Source: a virus (lineage: Duplodnaviria > Heunggongvirae > Uroviricota > Caudoviricetes). Taken from it: DNA of 14,561 bases. Numbering within the stretch: position 1 is the first letter of the stretch; every line of letters begins with the position of its first letter. The stretch lies in the IMG/VR virus record IMGVR_UViG_2534682108_000011; one strand, written 5' to 3'. Of this stretch, positions 277-7,499 are shown piece after piece. The translations under genes and the position numbers were made by a program. The notes beneath the pieces are model-generated. The model had not been told where the DNA came from. It searched no databases and was given only the letters and a program-made list of their open reading frames with translations.

Positions 277-496
277 GAAATATACAGGCGGATCATCTTT
301 CCAGGGGGAAGCACACCAATTCATGAGGGGCGTTAATGTCGATATGGGGATCCCCACCTACCGGAATTTTTTTCCGGTTAAACGTTAATCAGGCTGGTGG
401 GCTTTACCTGTTCGGTAGGTGTTATGATTATCGTAATACCTTTCCCCCAATGGGGTAAAAGCATCAACCGTAACGAAAGTCGTTATGGTTGCCACT

Positions 497-571
497 GATA
501 CCCCAAATTTGGGTATCACGAGTAAGCCCCAAAATCTGGGTGTTACTCTTACTACCCAAACTACGGGTAGT
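497..571. repeat. Array of three inverted repeats (TACCC-N7-GGGTA type) with centres at about 507, 534 and 561 (27-bp phasing)
   Basis: gataccccaaatttgggtatc (497-517), ccccaaaatctggg (527-540), actacccaaactacgggtagt (551-571). Non-coding region. Confidence 0.5.
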
Positions 572-589
572 TTCCGTAGTTTCATGGTC

Positions 590-609
590 GAGTTGCAGAT
601 CTGCAACTC
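590..609. repeat. Perfect 20-bp palindrome GAGTTGCAGATCTGCAACTC
   Basis: Self-complementary by direct reading; centred on AGATCT and contains GATC. Confidence 0.6.
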
Positions 610-863
610 CCCCATTAACCACAGGCGAATTTCCGCCTTCGGTCATTCCTTAATCATCTGCGTAATCATAATGATTATTCAGCAAGCGCAATTTTGCGCT
701 TTGCTTAAAGTTCAGCGAGTTACCGCGCCGACTTCCTCAAATTGAGGTTTCCGAAAATATCAGCGGGTTAGCGATTAAGCTGACCATTAATTAAACTGCG
801 AAAATGTCGTAGTTGTGAGGGGTGTAGCCAACCCATTTTTGGGCCGTCGGGAATATCAACCAG

Positions 864-1158: not shown

Positions 1159-2820
1159 TTACACCCCGCTAAATTCTTCCAGTTTCTGGCGGTGGCTGTC
1201 GCTTATATCAAAAGCAAAATCCTCATGCTCTGCCTGGAATGTACCAAACGCCATCAGCGCCGCCACGCTCGGGTCTATCTTGTTCGGTGATTTTTTCTTG
1301 TTCGGCTTGATATTGGCGTTCGCGTCACTCTGCATCACGACGTTACTCATCGACCAGGACAACACCGGATCGCCACGATGCACAATCACCCTGCGGTTAA
1401 CAAAAACTTCGAACGATTTCGCCGCCGGACTGAATCTGAGGTAGGTTTGCGGGAACGGCTCCACCTCAAAACCTGCCCCCTGTAATTGCGTTCTGAGATG
1501 CGTGGCGTTCCACGTATCAAAGCCCACCAGCCTGATATTAAATTTCTCCGCGTCCTGCATGATGTCATCTCTGATCCGGTCGTAATCAATGCAGTCGCCA
1601 GGCGTTGTGCGTATCCAGCCTGCTTTAGCCCACTGACGATAGATGGCGCGGTTTTTATTGGCGGGGTTCTGTAGCTGAAATTCCGGCAGATAGTGACGGG
1701 AAACCAGCATAATGGTTTTACCGACCGGAAAGGCATAGCACACGCTGGAAATATCGCTGGTTGATGATAAGTCCAGCCCCGCGTAACACTCCTGGCCGTG
1801 TAAATCTTCCTCCGTGAACGTTCCGGCACACTCAGCCCATGCGCCGTTACCCATCCACGGGGTAGCCCCCTGGCACCAGATATTAAATCGCTTTGTCATC
1901 ATCTCCACCCACTGCGACGGAATACCCCGCGCTTTCTGGATGGTTGAGGCCAGTTTTTCACGATCGACGGAAACATCAATATTAGGGTTCGCCTTTATCC
2001 ACATCGCCGGATCATCAACCTCGTTTTCGTCGTCCAGTTCGTAAATCAGTACAAAAATTGAATCGTTAACCTCTTCGCCGTCCAGGATCTGGCAGCAATA
2101 ATCATAGTGCTGTTTACAGGCTGAAACGACGTTGCTGCCTGATGTGGTAATGGCAAATAACAGCCCTTCGGGACGTGCGCCCATCCCCAGCTCAAGCGCG
2201 GAATAAACGCCGTTATCGGGGTGCAAGTGGTATTCGTCCACGATGGAAAGGCTTGGGTTTGTTCCCTCGATGGTTGCCGCTTTTGCTGCCAGCGGCTTTA
2301 ACAGGCTGTTGCTTTTCGGGTGTATCACCTTATGCGCCTGAATATTCACCCGCCTGCGTAACGGTAGGGATAAAAGGCACATCTGACGCGCATCATCAAA
2401 GACGATCCGCGCCTGGTCACGGCTCACCGCTGCGGTGTAGATATCCTGCTGACCGTTCTCCATAATCAGAAACCAGTTAGCCAGAATCGCGGCGGTCGTG
2501 GATTTCGCATTTTTGCGCGGCACTTCGATAAAGGCGCTCGTGTATTTGCGCCGTCCGGTGGCCTTAACCTTAAAGCCGAGGATGCACGCAAAGGCGAACT
2601 GCTGCCACGGCTCCAGCTCAATGGGTCTGCCACGCATCGGTCCTTTTACGTGCGGGCACACCCTGGAAAAGGCAATAAACCGCTCCACAACCTCACGATC
2701 GAACGTGTAAAGGGGGCTTTTAAGGTCCGAAAAGTACCGTTTAACGGCCTGTTTCAGCCGTTTACAGGCCGGAATTTTGCCCGTTTTTACGTCTTCTGCG
2801 TACTTATTCCAGGCGGTCAA
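1159..2820 (-). CDS. terL: Terminase large subunit (553 aa)
   Basis: N-terminus MTAWNKYAEDVKTGKIPACKRL is typical of TerL; ATPase P-loop-like PRKNAKST; length and position after terS. Confidence 0.9.
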   Translation of the reverse strand: MTAWNKYAEDVKTGKIPACKRLKQAVKRYFSDLKSPLYTFDREVVERFIAFSRVCPHVKGPMRGRPIELEPWQQFAFACILGFKVKATGRRKYTSAFIEVPRKNAKSTTAAILANWFLIMENGQQDIYTAAVSRDQARIVFDDARQMCLLSLPLRRRVNIQAHKVIHPKSNSLLKPLAAKAATIEGTNPSLSIVDEYHLHPDNGVYSALELGMGARPEGLLFAITTSGSNVVSACKQHYDYCCQILDGEEVNDSIFVLIYELDDENEVDDPAMWIKANPNIDVSVDREKLASTIQKARGIPSQWVEMMTKRFNIWCQGATPWMGNGAWAECAGTFTEEDLHGQECYAGLDLSSTSDISSVCYAFPVGKTIMLVSRHYLPEFQLQNPANKNRAIYRQWAKAGWIRTTPGDCIDYDRIRDDIMQDAEKFNIRLVGFDTWNATHLRTQLQGAGFEVEPFPQTYLRFSPAAKSFEVFVNRRVIVHRGDPVLSWSMSNVVMQSDANANIKPNKKKSPNKIDPSVAALMAFGTFQAEHEDFAFDISDSHRQKLEEFSGV

Positions 2821-3160
2821 GCTCGTCCTCTTCTTCTGTTTCCGGTGGGTTTTTACGGCGGCTTATCGGGTCAAAACCGAGCAAGGAGGCCATTTTTATC
2901 ATCACCCTTTCAGCGTCTGATTTCGCGCTTAATGCGGGGTTTCTGCTCTCGCCGCCCTGACTGTTAACAATGCTGAACCCGCGCGCCGCAAGGTCTGCGA
3001 CGGCTTTCCGGTAAATGGAGTAGTTGACACAATACAGTTCCAGATTGCTCCAGTCGGCGGGGGTCAGGTCTCCCCGTTCCGCAAGCTGCCGCGATTTTTC
3101 CCGCCACTGCTTCACGGCGATGTCATCCAGGTAGGCGGGGGCTTTCGGTGGTCTTGCCAT
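2804..3160 (-). CDS. terS: Terminase small subunit, P27-family-like (118 aa)
   Basis: N-terminus MARPPKAPAYLDD and acidic C-terminal tail EEEDELDRLE; overlaps the terL start by 17 nt. Confidence 0.75.
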   Translation of the reverse strand: MARPPKAPAYLDDIAVKQWREKSRQLAERGDLTPADWSNLELYCVNYSIYRKAVADLAARGFSIVNSQGGESRNPALSAKSDAERVMIKMASLLGFDPISRRKNPPETEEEDELDRLE

Positions 3161-3282
3161 GCTTATTTTTCGTCAGATTATTTTTCAAAAAATTCCCGTG
3201 CATAAAAATTTGAGGAGGCGTTCGGTGCCCGGCGGGGTCGGGTTTGTCCTGAAAACGCCCCCCACCCCGTCATACAGCCTCA

Positions 3283-3465
3283 TCAGCGATTGCGGAAACA
3301 TTCCATAACCTCGCGGTCACGGTCGGTTAATCGCTTCGCTGTGATGCGTTCTGCGCGTCCTGACGCTTTATCTTTATGCCCTGTTTCCTGTGTCTTCCAT
3401 GCGTCACGCTGCCTTATAAGTCCACGGATAAGGCGGTTTTGTTCCCGCTCATTCATCAGCGTCAT
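3283..3465 (-). CDS. Possible small ORF (60 aa) in the HNH-terS intergenic region
   Basis: MTLMNEREQNRLIRGLIRQRDAWKTQETGHKDKASGRAERITAKRLTDRDREVMECFRNR; protein-like composition but no clear SD; overlaps the HNH stop. Could instead be non-coding cos-region DNA. Confidence 0.25.
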   Translation of the reverse strand: MTLMNEREQNRLIRGLIRQRDAWKTQETGHKDKASGRAERITAKRLTDRDREVMECFRNR

Positions 3466-3889
3466 ACATCCAGTTATTGCGGTTAGCGGCCCGTTCTTCC
3501 TCTTCATGAAATCCACCTGCGGCACGCTTGCTTTTTGTTGCCGGATCAAGCCATTTCGTTTTCTGGTTATGACACGCCTGGCACAATGGTTGATGGTTCC
3601 ATTCGGGCCAGAAGAGAACATCATCACCGCCATTAATCGGGATAATGTGATCCACCACCACGGCGGGCGTATATATCCCCTTCTCAAGGCATCGCACGCA
3701 TAACGGGTTTTTACTCAGATACATGGCGCGGTATTTGTCCCACTGTCTGGAGTACCCACGCGCGCGGCGGTGTCCTCGTCTGGCATCCTCTGCACGCCAT
3801 GCCGCCCGCCTGTGCTCCTCACACTTGCCGGACTTCACGCGCCTGTTACAGCCTGGTTCTGTGCATCGTCTTAATGGTTGCCACGGCAT
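3449..3889 (-). CDS. HNH endonuclease (146 aa), packaging-associated
   Basis: Cys pairs CTEPGC and CVRC, plus VDHIIPINGGDD ... NHQPLCQACHNQKT HNH motif. Sits next to terS/terL as in HK97-like cos phages. Confidence 0.85.
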   Translation of the reverse strand: MPWQPLRRCTEPGCNRRVKSGKCEEHRRAAWRAEDARRGHRRARGYSRQWDKYRAMYLSKNPLCVRCLEKGIYTPAVVVDHIIPINGGDDVLFWPEWNHQPLCQACHNQKTKWLDPATKSKRAAGGFHEEEERAANRNNWMYDADE

Positions 3890-4185
3890 CAGTACACCCC
3901 CACATCACGGTAAGCCGTCCAGAGCGCGCCAATCGTCATGGGTACGCGCGTTTTTGCGTTATCCGCTACCAGCTGGCGATTCTCGTACAGGTGAGCGATA
4001 AACATCATGCAGCCAATCTTTATGGCTGGCGTGAACTCCAGCCCGTCATCAAAGCGCCTGCCTATATGTATCTGGCACGCCTCAAGCGATGCGGCAATGT
4101 ATCCGCTGATTAACTGGTCTTCCTCGTCGCCATCGATGCGGCAATGGAGTTTCACTTCTTCCAGGGTGATAAGTTCTTCTGTCAT
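3889..4185 (-). CDS. Head-tail connector protein, gp6-like (98 aa)
   Basis: MTEELITLEEVKLHCRIDGDEEDQLISGYIAASLE matches the conserved N-terminal pattern of this family; start overlaps the adaptor stop. Confidence 0.7.
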   Translation of the reverse strand: MTEELITLEEVKLHCRIDGDEEDQLISGYIAASLEACQIHIGRRFDDGLEFTPAIKIGCMMFIAHLYENRQLVADNAKTRVPMTIGALWTAYRDVGVY

Positions 4186-4520
4186 TTTTCCGCGCCCTCA
4201 CGACAAAGAATTTCAAGGCGTGTCCTGGCGGCATCCGGCAGCGGCTGCCCGATGATATTCAGTACACGCCCCGCCAGCGGCCCCGTACTGACCTTTATCC
4301 GGCTGGTGGCGTTGATGTCCTTCCGGTACCGTATCCAGATCCTTACGGTACCAATCGCCAGCTCTGCACCCGATGAAATGGCCTCCTTGCTGCTGATCAT
4401 GTTCACGCTTGCCCAGAGTGTGTGACCGTCCTCCCACGTTTCGAGTATTTCGCCGGTTATATCCCTGGTCTGTTTCAGGGTCTGAATCGTTACCCTGTCA
4501 CGCAGTCGCCCTATGTTCAT
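4182..4520 (-). CDS. Head-tail adaptor / head-closure protein (about 112 aa from the MNIGRLRDRVTIQ start)
   Basis: MNIGRLRDRVTIQ is the family-typical start. ATG at 4520 abuts the portal stop (4517); the longer ORF-track start at 4562 would overlap the portal by 46 nt. Confidence 0.7.
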   Translation of the reverse strand: MNIGRLRDRVTIQTLKQTRDITGEILETWEDGHTLWASVNMISSKEAISSGAELAIGTVRIWIRYRKDINATSRIKVSTGPLAGRVLNIIGQPLPDAARTRLEILCREGAEK

Positions 4521-5728
4521 TCCGGTTTTTCTCCCTCGCTGATTTTTACTTCCTGTTTCCATGCCTGGCTGAACTCATCACCACCATCACGCGGGGACAG
4601 CCCTTCACGTTCGCGGGCTTCGTTCGGGCACATAACGCCGGATTTGATGCCGCGTTCATAGGTGGCAAAGCGTTCGCCAGGTGTGGCCCGTAACAGGTCC
4701 GCGCTGTCAAACTCCACCTGATACCGGATACCAGGTACAGGCGAGGCCACCAGCAGGGCGTTTTTTATCTGCTGCTCAAAGTTCGCCAGCCACGGGCGCA
4801 TCGTCATAGTGAGAAATGCGCGGCTTGCCTCGCTGAAATTGCTGTAGGTGCTGTTGCTGTATTCCTGCAAAAAAATCGGCGAGACGTTGAACATTCGGGC
4901 GATGTCTTCAATGGTGAAGCGACGGGAGGCCAGCCATTCAGCATCCTGATTACTCATGCCCAGCTGCTGATAGCTCATACCCCCTTCAAGGATGGGCGTT
5001 TTTCCGGCGTTTCTGGCCCCTTTGTAGCGTTCCAGTGCGGCTAATGCCTGTTTGCCTTTCACGCCGTCCAGCCATTCGCCTGACGTGATAACCCCTGCCG
5101 CCATCATGCCATCACGCATCACGCTCGCGCCGTGGCGTTGTTGGGCCAGCCCAAGCCCCAGCGATTCGCGGCAGATGGTTACAGGTGAGCGCCCCATAAA
5201 ACCGTCATCCGTGGAGTAACGAAGGTGGAGAACCTCCCACGGTAAATAGTTGCGGGTGTTTCCGGTGTAGGCGTCAGTGATGCAGTAGCGCCAGTTGTGT
5301 TCGCCTGTCTGCTCCACGTTCACCGACTGCGGCGGGTAAGGATGTAAAGCCACCGGAAAACCATCACGCCCCCACTGAATCACCGCATAAGCATTACCGT
5401 TTAACAGGCAGTGGCGGATCATCATTCGCTTAAACTGGTAGGGAGTCTGCCACGCGTTCGGGCGCTCGTTGAGGATGTGATCGACCGGATGAGAATCAAG
5501 CCACTCTCGGGCCTCCTTCCCCTTCTCATTGCGTACCAGGTACAGGTAACACGGCATGGTAGCCACCGCCTCAGAGATGACCGTGACGGCGTTCATGACG
5601 GCGGGCAGTGATTCCGCTGTCCCCGATGATACGTACTCACCCGACCCCGTGTTCGATGTGCCGGCCAGCGCCATAAATTCATCCAGCGTCATGCTGCGCT
5701 GCTCTTTTTTTCTTCTGAAAGGCCACAT
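4517..5728 (-). CDS. Portal protein, HK97 family (403 aa)
   Basis: Size, position between protease and adaptor, and overall sequence character of HK97-type portals. Confidence 0.85.
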   Translation of the reverse strand: MWPFRRKKEQRSMTLDEFMALAGTSNTGSGEYVSSGTAESLPAVMNAVTVISEAVATMPCYLYLVRNEKGKEAREWLDSHPVDHILNERPNAWQTPYQFKRMMIRHCLLNGNAYAVIQWGRDGFPVALHPYPPQSVNVEQTGEHNWRYCITDAYTGNTRNYLPWEVLHLRYSTDDGFMGRSPVTICRESLGLGLAQQRHGASVMRDGMMAAGVITSGEWLDGVKGKQALAALERYKGARNAGKTPILEGGMSYQQLGMSNQDAEWLASRRFTIEDIARMFNVSPIFLQEYSNSTYSNFSEASRAFLTMTMRPWLANFEQQIKNALLVASPVPGIRYQVEFDSADLLRATPGERFATYERGIKSGVMCPNEAREREGLSPRDGGDEFSQAWKQEVKISEGEKPE

Positions 5729-5729
5729 A

Positions 5730-6302
5730 TCACACCCCCGCTAAATCCGCCCACCAGCGGCGATTATCCGCACGCGGCATTTTTTCGGGGTGCTGCTCAT
5801 ACAGGGAACGGCGGGCCAGCTCCACGCCGGAATCAGGGTAAGCCGGTACGGATGTAACGGTAATTTCGTACAGTTCCGCCACCAGCACGGTGCGCACGCA
5901 TGGATCTGTTGTGGTATCCCATACATCCTTACGGGAACGAAAGCCAAAGCTCATGCCGGATATATCACCACGTTTAACCAGTTCGATAACGTCACGCCCT
6001 GTGCTGGTATCCGGTGGGGTAAGTTCAAAGCGTAACCCTGTGTCGTCCTCTTCCAGTTTCAGCGTGCCGGAACGGGTGCGCCCCAGTAACATGCTGTGGT
6101 CATGCTCATACAGGCCGCGAACGTCATTACCCGCCGCAAGCCACTCAGTAAACGCCCCCCGCTGGAATTTTTCGTAAAACTCCCCCCATAGCAGTTCTGA
6201 AAGCTTATCCCAGCGAACAACGTAGCCCGTCAGCGTACCGGCTCCGCTGGTGGTGATTTCCGATGACCGGATTTCCATACTCTTCATAATTTTTTCACCC
6301 AT
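5730..6302 (-). CDS. Prohead maturation protease, HK97 family (about 190 aa; true start may be an internal Met)
   Basis: MEIRSSEITTSG ... GYVVRWD ... GMSFGF are typical of HK97 prohead proteases; lies between capsid and portal. Confidence 0.85.
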   Translation of the reverse strand: MGEKIMKSMEIRSSEITTSGAGTLTGYVVRWDKLSELLWGEFYEKFQRGAFTEWLAAGNDVRGLYEHDHSMLLGRTRSGTLKLEEDDTGLRFELTPPDTSTGRDVIELVKRGDISGMSFGFRSRKDVWDTTTDPCVRTVLVAELYEITVTSVPAYPDSGVELARRSLYEQHPEKMPRADNRRWWADLAGV

Positions 6303-6341: not shown

Positions 6342-7499
6342 TTAATCGTCGTCCTGTGGCAGTTCCAGAATCTTGATCGCGTTCGAATCCACCACGCCAC
6401 CGCCTAAATATTTCTGCGTGAAAATTTTGATGAAGCCCGGCTCTGTGAGGTTGTCCGGTCTGGTGCGAACACCTGTTTCGTGATCAACAATGTAGTAACC
6501 GCGTTTGAAGTCACCCAGGGCAATAACGTTATCAGGCATAAACTCCAGATATTCGACCGGAAGGCCCAGCAACGTATCAGGATCACCCGCCTGTAAACGG
6601 TCGCGCCAGATGTAATCACCGTTCGCGTTCTTCACCTTCTGAAGTTTTGCCGCCGTCGTGGAGTTAACCACCCAGACCGCGTTTTTGCGGTATTTTTTAC
6701 GTAATGCAAATTTCAGGTCGATCAGCGGGTCCGCAGATGTCCACGCCAGAGATTCGGAAGGTTTAATTACCTGCAACGTACCAAAATCACGCTCTTTGTC
6801 GTTCTTCTCTGCACGGGGTACGGATAAAAAACCTTTTGCTTTTTTGTCACCGTCGCCCACAACCAGATCGCTTTCTTCGGTTTCCGTGAAGGTGTCGCCA
6901 ATCTCACCCGTCAGCCATGAAAGGATGTCCACATCGGAAAAATCCACGATTTCCTGTGTGGTGCGCGGGTACGCATAGACCGGATACAGCTTAATGCTCA
7001 CCTCGTTAATCTGCGGGGTGCTGGTCTGTTCGCGTGCCTTACCCTCTTCACCGTGGTTAACGGTCGCACCGCCAGCGGAAACAAGCTGCTTAAACTCGTT
7101 GCTGCTGATTTTCTTCACGGTACAGATGCGGCGCATGGTGGATTCATCCGCCAGCATTCGCATGATTTCGGTGTTCAGCTCGGGGATAACGGTATAACCA
7201 CCATCAGCGGGAACGCCTGTACTTAATGCGCGGGTTTCACCTGTCAGGATGTAGTTGCGTAGTTCTGCGGGGTCAGTGGTCTGACTGCTTTTACCTGGCT
7301 TGCTGCGCTCTTCGTCTGCAATGGCTTCAAGGCGGGAAATGTCTTTATCGAGGGATTCAGCTTTAGTGCGTAATTCGTCAAATTTTGCGCCCTCAGCATC
7401 GTTAAGACTGCGGTTTTCTTTTTCCGCGTTCTCCAGCATGTCGCGCATCTGATTTTTAATGGCGGTTTTCTGCTGGCGTAATTCGATTATTCTCGGCAT
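6342..7499 (-). CDS. Major capsid protein, HK97 fold (385 aa) with N-terminal coiled-coil delta/scaffold domain
   Basis: Charged, helical N-terminal ~100 aa followed by a capsid-like domain; adjacent protease. Confidence 0.9.
   Translation of the reverse strand: MPRIIELRQQKTAIKNQMRDMLENAEKENRSLNDAEGAKFDELRTKAESLDKDISRLEAIADEERSKPGKSSQTTDPAELRNYILTGETRALSTGVPADGGYTVIPELNTEIMRMLADESTMRRICTVKKISSNEFKQLVSAGGATVNHGEEGKAREQTSTPQINEVSIKLYPVYAYPRTTQEIVDFSDVDILSWLTGEIGDTFTETEESDLVVGDGDKKAKGFLSVPRAEKNDKERDFGTLQVIKPSESLAWTSADPLIDLKFALRKKYRKNAVWVVNSTTAAKLQKVKNANGDYIWRDRLQAGDPDTLLGLPVEYLEFMPDNVIALGDFKRGYYIVDHETGVRTRPDNLTEPGFIKIFTQKYLGGGVVDSNAIKILELPQDDD

What the first reader, a model, noticed from the sequence alone, without database searches (positions are those of the whole stretch)
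3161..3448. Unusually long HNH-terS intergenic gap: candidate cos site and/or a hidden small gene
All other head and packaging genes are tightly coupled, with 4-nt overlaps or gaps under 45 bp, yet HNH and terS are separated by about 288 bp. In HK97-like cos phages the cos site lies between the HNH gene and terS. The gap contains a G/C-rich imperfect inverted repeat (GGCGGGGTCGGG ... CCCCCCACCCCG, about 3229-3270) and a possible 60-aa ORF (3283-3465). If this is the island's own cos, it would define packaging specificity relative to helper phages.
Basis: inference. Interest (0 to 1): 0.55.

Follow-up and report, generated by a model that had tools for sequence, protein, structure and literature searches.

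The report
Satellite's own cos site plus small gene
The 288-base "gap" between the HNH and small-terminase genes of this E. coli capsid-forming phage satellite holds a real 57-residue gene and a 122-base non-coding stretch that is very probably the satellite's own DNA-packaging (cos) site; this was expected for the family, but the site is now located.

Summary
The window is a capsid-forming PICI, 99.4% identical over this stretch to the prototype EcCIEDL933. The 288-bp HNH-terS spacing is real but has two parts.

1. **Small gene, 3283-3456 (minus strand).** It encodes 57 aa and overlaps the HNH stop by 8 nt. RefSeq annotates it as a hypothetical protein and it matches phrog_3173. It is conserved at protein level in at least 17 genera of Enterobacterales. 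Its function is unknown.

2. **Non-coding gap, 3161-3282.** A G-run (3259-3268) and a 49-nt core (3178-3226) are as conserved across about 30 genera as terS codon positions 1 and 2. The spacer between them drifts like third codon positions.

Three lines of evidence place cos in this gap:
- The layout parallels the HK97/HK75 cos, whose annotated cohesive end is CGCCGCCAAA.
- A profile of the gap finds its best HK97 hit abutting the HK97 cos end, although the hit is weak (E=0.17).
- The only particle-derived record of a relative (vB_KppS-Ant, which is KpCIDSM30104) is a linear contig that breaks exactly here and lacks 69 bp.

The predicted nick zone is about 3213-3225. The helper HK106 carries HK97-type cos, so the island's site is distinct from its helper's. 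This is an ordinary and useful result, not a surprising one.

The parts
3449..3889 (-). HNH endonuclease gene (146 aa), the packaging HNH of the HK97-type terminase system
   Evidence: Pfam PF01844 E=1.7e-8; phrog_144 E=1e-44; RefSeq annotation
3283..3456 (-). Small gene, 57 aa plus stop (MNEREQNRL...REVMECFRNR). Its ATG overlaps the HNH stop by 8 nt. PGAP calls it from ATG 3465 (60 aa). Function unknown; probably a packaging accessory.
   Evidence: Annotated as WP_000174068.1. phrog_3173 E=6e-37 over 57/57 profile positions. Homologues in 25 of 80 species-level loci, with conserved N- and C-terminal motifs and the stop 116-135 nt (usually 128-130) before terS. 163 clusters, all named hypothetical, no Pfam. 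Only 25 representatives among 1.84 billion proteins. Nucleotide diversity by codon position 3.8/4.6/7.3. AF2 model is one long helix plus a short C-terminal helix, pLDDT 77.
3161..3282 (-). Non-coding gap: the proposed cos region of the island
   Evidence: No ORF conserved across relatives. No promoter on the coding strand, no terminator and no Rfam hit. Its length is conserved in relatives. The cos profile built from relatives has its only strong hit in the window here (3270-3166, E=3e-26; the window itself is one of the sequences in the profile).
3259..3268 (-). Conserved G-run GGGGTGGGGG, upstream element of the cos region. It is the counterpart of the G-run 32 nt upstream of the HK97/HK75 cohesive end.
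   Evidence: Mean pairwise identity 0.87-0.89 across 74 sequences from about 30 genera. The HK97 and HK75 ends have GGGCAGGGGGGGGG at the same distance.
3228..3242 (-). Variable spacer.
   Evidence: Mean pairwise identity 0.40-0.47, at the level of terS third codon positions (0.52). Arm complementarity is not conserved.
3178..3226 (-). Conserved 49-nt core: ACCGAACGCCTCCTCAAATTTTTATGCACGGGAATTTTTTGAAAAATAA. The family consensus is AACCGCCCGCCTCCTCAAATTTTTACGCACGGCAATTTTTTTGAAAATAA. Proposed nicking site plus terminase-binding flank.
   Evidence: Mean pairwise identity 0.83, against 0.84/0.89/0.52 for terS codon positions 1/2/3 in the same 33 Enterobacterales/Aeromonas loci. Also present in Pasteurellaceae and Orbaceae islands.
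3213..3225 (-). Predicted cohesive-end / nicking zone (the CGAACGCCTCC segment), uncertain by about 5 nt either way
   Evidence: nhmmer aligns HK97 ...GACCGCCGCC to profile positions 45-55. HK75 annotates its last 10 nt, CGCCGCCAAA, as the cos site. The 69 bp missing from the particle-derived Ant record correspond to window 3174-3245, midpoint 3209.5. This is an inference, not a mapped end.
2804..3160 (-). terS, P27-family small terminase (118 aa), the presumed cos-recognition subunit
   Evidence: PF05119 E=1e-23; TIGR01558 E=2e-16
1159..2820 (-). terL, large terminase (553 aa)
   Evidence: PF03354 and PF20441

Best explanation
The HNH-terS interval of this capsid-forming PICI has two functional parts.

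(1) A translationally coupled 57-aa gene (3283-3456) of the phrog_3173 family. It is probably a non-essential helper of packaging.

(2) A 122-nt non-coding cos region (3161-3282) of HK97 type. In the proposed mechanism, the island's own TerS (P27 family) recognises the conserved core and flanking blocks on concatemeric island DNA. TerL and the HNH protein then make staggered nicks in the C-rich segment around 3213-3225, giving short cohesive ends; a 3' overhang of about 10 nt is expected by analogy with HK97. DNA is packaged in the direction of terS into the island's small capsids. The upstream G-run would act at termination or orientation, like lambda cosQ.

The helper HK106 carries an HK97-type cos with a different sequence, so this site gives the island its exclusive packaging.

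Shown here: gene content, conservation, layout, and the break in the particle-derived record. Inferred: the nick positions, the overhang type, the role of each block, and the role of the small protein.
For: - Identity of the island: full cf-PICI gene set, and 99.4% identity to EcCIEDL933 over 3161-3470.
- cf-PICIs are reported to have cohesive cos ends (KpCIDSM30104, bioRxiv 10.1101/2025.02.11.637232).
- Conservation: the G-run (identity 0.88) and the core (0.83) match terS codon positions 1 and 2 (0.84/0.89). The spacer (0.47) matches position 3 (0.52). The blocks persist in Pasteurellaceae and Orbaceae.
- Layout parallel with HK97/HK75. G-run to C-rich 10-11-mer: 32 nt in HK97, 33 nt here. 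C-rich segment to a T6-7 run preceded by CCCGA (HK97) or CGGGAA (here): 18 versus 15 nt. C-rich segment to the terS ATG: 49 versus 53 nt.
- A profile of the island gap scanned over the whole circularised HK97 genome, both strands, puts its top hit at 39682-39729, touching the cos end at 39732 in the right orientation.
- LR881103.1 was assembled from Nextera-sequenced particle DNA of K. pneumoniae DSM 30104 (PMC8006926). It is a linear, att-permuted contig that starts 22 nt before terS and ends 37 nt after the small gene. It lacks exactly 69 bp that are present in the chromosomal copy.
- The helper HK106 has the HK97 cos region at 97% identity.
- In EcCIEDL933, a mutant in 'hypothetical gene 1792' of the packaging module was severely reduced in transfer but not abolished. 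This fits the small gene.
Against: - No physical ends were mapped for this island.
- The HK97 profile hit is weak on its own (E=0.17, 6.6 bits). The rank argument was made after seeing the result.
- The Ant contig break could have another cause, and the 69-bp loss gives only a zone, not nick positions.
- None of 200 IMG/VR contigs, and none of three Logan assembly contigs (two of about 16 kb), ended in the gap.
- None of the inverted repeats in the gap is conserved, so no dyad symmetry supports a nicking centre.
- The small gene is absent from the Xenorhabdus, Photorhabdus, Pasteurellaceae and Orbaceae (Gilliamella, Frischella) islands examined here, which keep the cos-like blocks. It therefore cannot be a universal part of the mechanism.
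- Its identity with gene 1792 was not verified.
Confidence: 0.8

Rival explanations
1. The conserved non-coding blocks are transcriptional or translational control elements for terS-terL (an internal promoter, terminator/attenuator or leader RNA), and cos lies elsewhere, for example inside terS or downstream of terL.
For: It is the only sizeable intergenic space in the operon. The A/T-rich tract lies just upstream of the terS start. Conservation alone does not say what the constraint is.
Against: - No sigma-70-like site on the coding strand and no intrinsic terminator.
- No Rfam match at E<=1.
- RNA folding is no better than shuffles, and the helices are not conserved.
- This reading does not explain why the particle-derived record breaks here.
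- It does not explain the positional parallel with the HK97/HK75 cos.
- The cos profile has no second strong hit in the window.
Confidence: 0.08
2. The interval is a pac site for headful packaging rather than a cos site with fixed ends.
For: TerS-proximal packaging signals are also typical of pac phages. No ends were mapped here.
Against: - An HNH gene next to terS-terL is the signature of HNH-dependent cos systems such as HK97 (Kala et al. 2014, as cited).
- Cohesive-end concatemers were reported for packaged KpCIDSM30104 DNA.
- The Ant assembly is a unit-length linear contig with no terminal overlap. A headful, permuted population would be expected to assemble as a circle.
Confidence: 0.04
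3. The small ORF is not a functional gene but an open frame kept open by constraints on overlapping signals. The whole 288 nt would then be the packaging signal.
For: The family is narrow (25 representatives among 1.84 billion proteins). It has no Pfam match and no fold match, and no strong Shine-Dalgarno sequence in this window. It is absent from the Xenorhabdus, Photorhabdus, Pasteurellaceae and Orbaceae islands examined.
Against: - The protein sequence is only 34-56% identical between genera, yet the frame, the length (46-57 aa), the start overlapping the HNH stop, and the N- and C-terminal motifs are all kept.
- Third-position variation is in excess.
- The N-terminal helix is predicted with confidence.
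- Islands that lack the ORF lack the whole segment rather than keeping it as non-coding DNA.
Confidence: 0.08

Closest known systems
cos site of coliphage HK97 and its relatives (HK022, HK75, HK106): HNH (gp74)-dependent cos cleavage with 10-nt 3' cohesive ends
   Same: - Position between the HNH gene (plus a small ORF) and terS.
- The same order and spacing of a G-run, a C-rich 10-11-mer, a T-run and the terS start.
- The same protein set of HNH, TerS and TerL.
   Different: - The sequence is only weakly similar (nhmmer E=0.17).
- TerS is of the P27 family (PF05119) rather than the HK97 gp1 type.
- The gene order of the module is capsid...HNH-terS-terL, so cos lies in the middle of the island's late operon.
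- The ends are not mapped.
EcCIEDL933 and KpCIDSM30104, the characterised capsid-forming PICIs (Alqurainy et al. 2022/2023; He et al. 2025)
   Same: - Same element family. This interval is 99.4% identical to EcCIEDL933.
- The layout is homologous to KpCIDSM30104.
- Packaging is reported as cos-type and exclusive to island capsids.
   Different: - The papers that could be read do not give the position or sequence of cos.
- This island sits at a different chromosomal site: next to a tqsA remnant, whereas EcCIEDL933 is next to phoQ/icd.
lambda cos (cosQ-cosN-cosB)
   Same: A tripartite logic is plausible here: an upstream element (the G-run), a nicking segment, and a terS-proximal flank with A/T tracts.
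   Different: - Lambda makes 12-nt 5' overhangs and does not use an HNH protein.
- There is no sequence relation.
- The assignment of lambda-like roles to the blocks here is pure inference.
phrog_3173 (phage protein family of unknown function)
   Same: The small gene matches the whole 57-position profile at E=6e-37.
   Different: The family has no assigned function. The small ORF that HK97-like phages carry at the same position (HK75_58, phrog_10282) belongs to a different family.

Membership tests
Capsid-forming PICI (cf-PICI) | [quoted passage not shown] | tested here: met
   Pfam hits for all packaging genes. RefSeq annotation of the 100%-identical locus shows the integrase, HTH regulator, primase and no tail or lysis genes. 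The interval is 99.4% identical to EcCIEDL933.
HK97-type (HNH-dependent) cos site | Lies between the HNH gene and terS of a terminase module that encodes HNH, TerS and TerL | tested here: met
HK97-type (HNH-dependent) cos site | Packaged DNA is unit length with fixed ends at this site | tested here: inconclusive
   Indirect only. The particle-derived linear record of KpCIDSM30104 breaks in the gap and lacks 69 bp. Cohesive ends are reported for that island. There are no end data for this island, and no IMG/VR or Logan contig ended in the gap.
HK97-type (HNH-dependent) cos site | 10-nt 3' overhang produced by staggered nicks | not testable with these tools
   Needs end sequencing or run-off sequencing. 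The position 3213-3225 is predicted only by alignment to the HK97/HK75 cohesive end CGCCGCCAAA.
HK97-type (HNH-dependent) cos site | Sequence relationship to the HK97 cos region | tested here: inconclusive
   The best hit of the island profile in the whole HK97 genome abuts the cos end, but at E=0.17 and 6.6 bits. The spacing of the blocks matches within 1-4 nt.
phrog_3173 small protein | Full-length match to the family profile | tested here: met
   E=6.2e-37 over residues 1-57 of 57. The Klebsiella homologue matches at E=2e-27.
Intrinsic terminator or structured RNA in the gap | A stable, conserved stem-loop (followed by a T-run for a terminator), or a match to an RNA family | tested here: not met
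   No terminator-like site. No Rfam hit at E<=1. Fold z-scores of -0.40 and -0.01. Pairing is not conserved beyond shifted controls.

The most novel reading that the evidence does not exclude
The 57-aa phrog_3173 protein could be a cos-specificity or cos-cleavage cofactor: a small DNA- or terminase-binding helper encoded right next to the site. It would help the island's HNH-TerS-TerL complex choose the island cos over the helper's HK97-type cos. In addition, the near-identical cos core shared by cf-PICIs of Enterobacterales, Aeromonas, Pasteurellaceae and Orbaceae could make these islands mutually packageable across genera.
Probability: 0.15. Interest if true: 0.55.

Novelty: new member of a known kind. 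Interest (0 to 1): 0.33.

Why it matters
Capsid-forming PICIs package only their own DNA into their own small capsids and then borrow tails, sometimes across species. What makes that packaging exclusive is the island's terminase acting on the island's cos.

This work locates the likely cos to a 122-nt interval. It identifies the blocks under selection (the G-run and the 49-nt core) and shows that they differ from the helper's cos. That gives a concrete fragment for cos-plasmid, mutational and in vitro cleavage experiments, and a sequence signature for finding these islands.

It also flags a conserved small protein next to the site as a candidate packaging accessory.

None of this overturns expectations. 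An HK97-like cos between HNH and terS is what a specialist would predict.

Tried and rejected
- **Contig ends in public collections.** I looked for contigs ending in the gap as a proxy for physical ends. The 80 IMG/VR loci found by TerS, the 120 IMG/VR loci found by a core pattern and three Logan assembly contigs, two of them about 16 kb, all contain the gap internally. This was uninformative, because most are proviruses or cellular DNA.
- **Inverted repeats as a functional unit.** None is conserved beyond shifted controls, so no claim of dyad symmetry is made.
- **Terminator, promoter or RNA-family explanations.** Nothing was found.
- **Function of the small protein.** There was no hit in Pfam or NCBIfam and none in BFVD by fold. 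An exhaustive profile search reached only a narrow family.
- **'Hypothetical gene 1792' of EcCIEDL933.** I tried to link it to the small gene. The published Cell Host & Microbe version and the supplements are not held. The cluster member names shown do not include an EDL933 locus tag. The link rests only on the '9-gene module' count.
- **MF417951**, a virome clone related to Ant, is not in the collections.
- **Acinetobacter phage AbIPP1** starts at the terS ATG because the record was rotated, so its ends carry no information.
It is a cluster of hairpins outside the packaging module, with no similarity to the cos profile.

Full report
**What the window is.** All genes of interest lie on the minus strand. 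The order is integrase, regulators, primase, major capsid (6342-7499), prohead protease (5730-6302), portal (4517-5728), head closure protein, head-tail connector (3889-4185), HNH (3449-3889), terS of the P27 family (2804-3160) and terL (1159-2820). The window is 100% identical to a chromosomal island of E. coli CAU16175. In that genome RefSeq annotates the same genes and no tail or lysis genes. Over 3161-3470 the window is 99.4% identical to E. coli O157:H7 EDL933, which carries EcCIEDL933, the prototype capsid-forming PICI (bioRxiv 10.1101/2022.09.08.507074). About 10% of complete E. coli genomes (533 of 5426) carry this module.

**Checking the observation.** HNH and terS are 288 nt apart, while every other junction in the operon is an overlap or a gap of at most 39 nt. 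The inverted repeat is there: 3233-3242 against 3260-3269, 9 of 10 complementary. The 60-aa ORF 3283-3465 exists on the minus strand. Two qualifications apply.
- RefSeq already annotates the ORF as a hypothetical protein in every relative I opened. The real non-coding gap is therefore 122 nt (3161-3282).
- The inverted repeat is not special. Folding of the gap is no more stable than dinucleotide shuffles, z = -0.40 as RNA and -0.01 as DNA. In 74 related sequences, complementarity at the same alignment columns has a median of 4 of 10, no better than when one arm is slid by 1-3 columns.

**The small gene.**
- *Distribution and shape.* Translating the region upstream of terS in 80 species-level loci found with a TerS alignment shows a homologous ORF in 25 of them, from at least 17 genera. 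These include Klebsiella, Enterobacter, Kosakonia, Serratia, Yersinia, Proteus, Providencia, Erwinia, Pantoea, Pectobacterium and Rahnella. The ORF always ends 116-135 nt (usually 128-130) before the terS ATG, and its start overlaps the HNH stop. Sequences are only 34-56% identical to the window's. They keep the motif M-x-E at the start and R-[DE]-R-[ED]-[LIV]-x-[ED]-[CA]-F-R-N-R at the end, with a variable basic linker between them.
- *Start codon.* The alignment and the 57-position profile of phrog_3173 (E=6e-37, residues 1-57) put the start at ATG 3456, not the 3465 chosen by PGAP.
- *Coding signal.* Among 59 distinct close relatives, nucleotide diversity by codon position is 3.8/4.6/7.3.
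- *Family size.* A profile search returns 163 clusters, all named hypothetical and none with a Pfam domain. An exhaustive HMMER search of 1.84 billion representatives returns only 25.
- *Structure.* AlphaFold2 predicts one long helix and a short C-terminal helix (pLDDT 77). There is no fold match among viral models.
- *Where it is absent.* The gene is missing from the Xenorhabdus, Photorhabdus, Pasteurellaceae and Orbaceae (Gilliamella, Frischella) islands examined here. In those, HNH itself ends about 118-130 nt before terS.
- *Possible link to a known phenotype.* The EcCIEDL933 paper reports that all mutants of the packaging module abolished transfer except 'hypothetical gene 1792', which reduced it severely. 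A later paper counts nine genes in the module. From capsid to terL, RefSeq lists exactly nine CDS, and the only hypothetical one is this ORF. The identification is therefore likely, but I could not verify it.

**The non-coding 122 nt.** I aligned the 140 nt upstream of terS from 74 distinct sequences: about 30 genera of Enterobacterales, plus Aeromonas, Pasteurellaceae and Orbaceae. The alignment resolves the gap into blocks. Mean pairwise identities are as follows.

| Segment | Window coordinates | Mean pairwise identity |
|---|---|---|
| G-run GGGGTGGGGG | 3259-3268 | 0.87-0.89 |
| GACAAA | 3243-3248 | 0.80-0.86 |
| 49-nt core (consensus AACCGCCCGCCTCCTCAAATTTTTACGCACGGCAATTTTTTTGAAAATAA) | 3178-3226 | 0.83 |
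| Last 17 nt before the ATG | 3161-3177 | 0.42-0.49 |

In the same 33 Enterobacterales/Aeromonas loci, terS codon positions 1, 2 and 3 score 0.84, 0.89 and 0.52. So two non-coding blocks are constrained like amino-acid-determining positions, while the spacers drift like synonymous sites. Nothing suggests an RNA or transcription signal. There is no terminator, and the only promoter-like match is on the opposite strand. There is no Rfam hit and no conserved pairing.

**Why cos.**
- *Reported packaging type.* cf-PICI packaging is reported to be cos-type, with cohesive ends, and the module derives from HK97-like systems in which HNH, TerS and TerL cut cos.
- *Layout matches HK97.* The HK97 record starts at its left end, and terS begins at nt 50. 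The HK75 record annotates its last 10 nt, CGCCGCCAAA, as the cos site. Upstream of that end both phages have a G-run. Side by side, the distances are as follows.

| Interval | HK97 | This island |
|---|---|---|
| G-run to the C-rich 10-11-mer | 32 nt | 33 nt |
| C-rich segment to a T6-7 run (preceded by CCCGA in HK97, CGGGAA here) | 18 nt | 15 nt |
| C-rich segment to the terS ATG | 49 nt | 53 nt |

- *Profile scan of HK97.* An nhmmer profile of the island gap, scanned over the whole circularised HK97 genome on both strands, places its best hit at 39682-39729, which touches the end at 39732 in the correct orientation. The hit is weak (E=0.17). Its location within a target of about 100 nt out of 79 kb is what carries weight, and that argument was made after the fact.
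- *A particle-derived record breaks here.* LR881103.1 ('vB_KppS-Ant') was assembled with SPAdes from Nextera XT reads of particle DNA grown on K. pneumoniae DSM 30104, and is more than 99% identical to that host. It is the cf-PICI KpCIDSM30104. The record is linear with no terminal overlap, and it is permuted relative to the integrated form, with the integrase in the middle. It begins 22 nt before terS and ends 37 nt after the small gene. The chromosomal copy in ATCC 13883 (= DSM 30104) is identical on both sides but has 69 extra bp between the two record ends. Tagmentation libraries under-sample the last tens of bases of linear molecules. A unit-length contig that breaks in this gap and loses about 30-37 nt on each side is what cos ends in the middle of the missing segment would give. 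The missing segment corresponds to window 3174-3245, with its midpoint at 3209.5. The chance of an arbitrary break falling in a gap of about 128 nt in a 16.6-kb element is under 1%.
- *Predicted nick zone.* Alignment to HK97 places the counterpart of CGCCGCCAAA at window 3214-3224 (CGAACGCCTCC). I give 3213-3225, plus or minus 5 nt, as the predicted nicking zone, with modest confidence.

**Specificity.** The helper HK106 carries the HK97 cos region at 97% identity. The island's region is barely alignable to it. The island also encodes a different TerS family (PF05119/TIGR01558).

**Rivals.**
- *A regulatory element, with cos elsewhere.* This is not excluded by conservation alone. It fails to explain the Ant break and the HK97 parallel, and it has no positive support.
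- *Headful pac packaging.* This is unlikely, given the HNH-terminase architecture, the reported cohesive ends and the unit-length linear assembly.
- *The small ORF as a non-gene.* This is unlikely, given its protein-level conservation pattern.

**Comparison and novelty.** The element belongs to a known satellite family. The site is of a known kind, an HK97-type HNH-dependent cos. The small gene is an already catalogued family of unknown function. What is added here is a located and dissected candidate cos for proteobacterial cf-PICIs, which I did not find described in the papers available to me, and the observation that its core is nearly the same from Escherichia to Pasteurellaceae. A specialist would have predicted the location. 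The interest is practical rather than conceptual.

**Limits.** There is no experimental end mapping. The nick positions, overhang polarity, the roles of the G-run and the T-rich flank, and the function of the small protein are inferences. The published version of the cf-PICI paper could not be read and may already contain some of this.

Noticed in passing
window 451-618: A cluster of back-to-back hairpin-type inverted repeats (451-476/480-505, 499-531/537-569, 551-564/567-580, 581-599/600-618). It lies in unannotated DNA beyond terL and a 93-aa ORF. Pieces of 400-860 occur in 1176 of 5426 E. coli genomes, more than the 533 that carry the packaging module. There is no Rfam match and no similarity to the cos profile.
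   Followed up: partly
window 3161-3300, as read in public protein databases: Many database 'TerS' entries of 156-165 aa are N-terminal extensions that read through the cos-like gap. They arise in island variants that lack the in-frame TGA (window 3174-3176). RefSeq calls the 118-aa form. This is an annotation artefact laid over a non-coding packaging signal.
   Followed up: partly
L002 (LR881103.1, whole record): 'Escherichia phage vB_KppS-Ant' was described as a filamentous ssDNA prophage and a novel genus (PMC8006926). It is in fact the capsid-forming PICI KpCIDSM30104 of K. pneumoniae DSM 30104. Its record also labels a 765-aa accessory gene downstream of terL (2036-4333) as a tape measure protein, which I did not check.
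   Followed up: partly
L170 895-1098 (HK97), L297 20-223 (HK75_58), L296 33041-33259 (AbIPP1): True HK97-like phages, and an Acinetobacter phage with a P27-family TerS, also carry a small ORF (67-72 aa) between the HNH gene and cos/terS. The HK97 one is phrog_10282, unrelated in sequence to the island's phrog_3173, and it is not annotated in the HK97 RefSeq record. 'HNH - small ORF - cos - terS' may be a recurrent arrangement.
   Followed up: partly
window 3161-3282, variable sites among 59 close relatives: Variable sites in the non-coding gap show an uneven three-base phase: 15/15/8 sites, diversity 5.3/6.2/1.7. The least variable phase is codon position 1 of the terS frame. The window has an in-frame stop there and the pattern is not that of a coding region. 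It is probably chance clustering, but it remains unexplained.
   Followed up: no
L001 8302-8445 versus L295 15465-23522: This island sits next to a truncated tqsA (autoinducer-2 transporter) gene, whereas the near-identical EcCIEDL933 packaging module sits next to phoQ-phoP-purB-icd. The integrases also differ (WP_033809557.1 versus WP_000085257.1). The same packaging module therefore travels with different integration modules.
   Followed up: no
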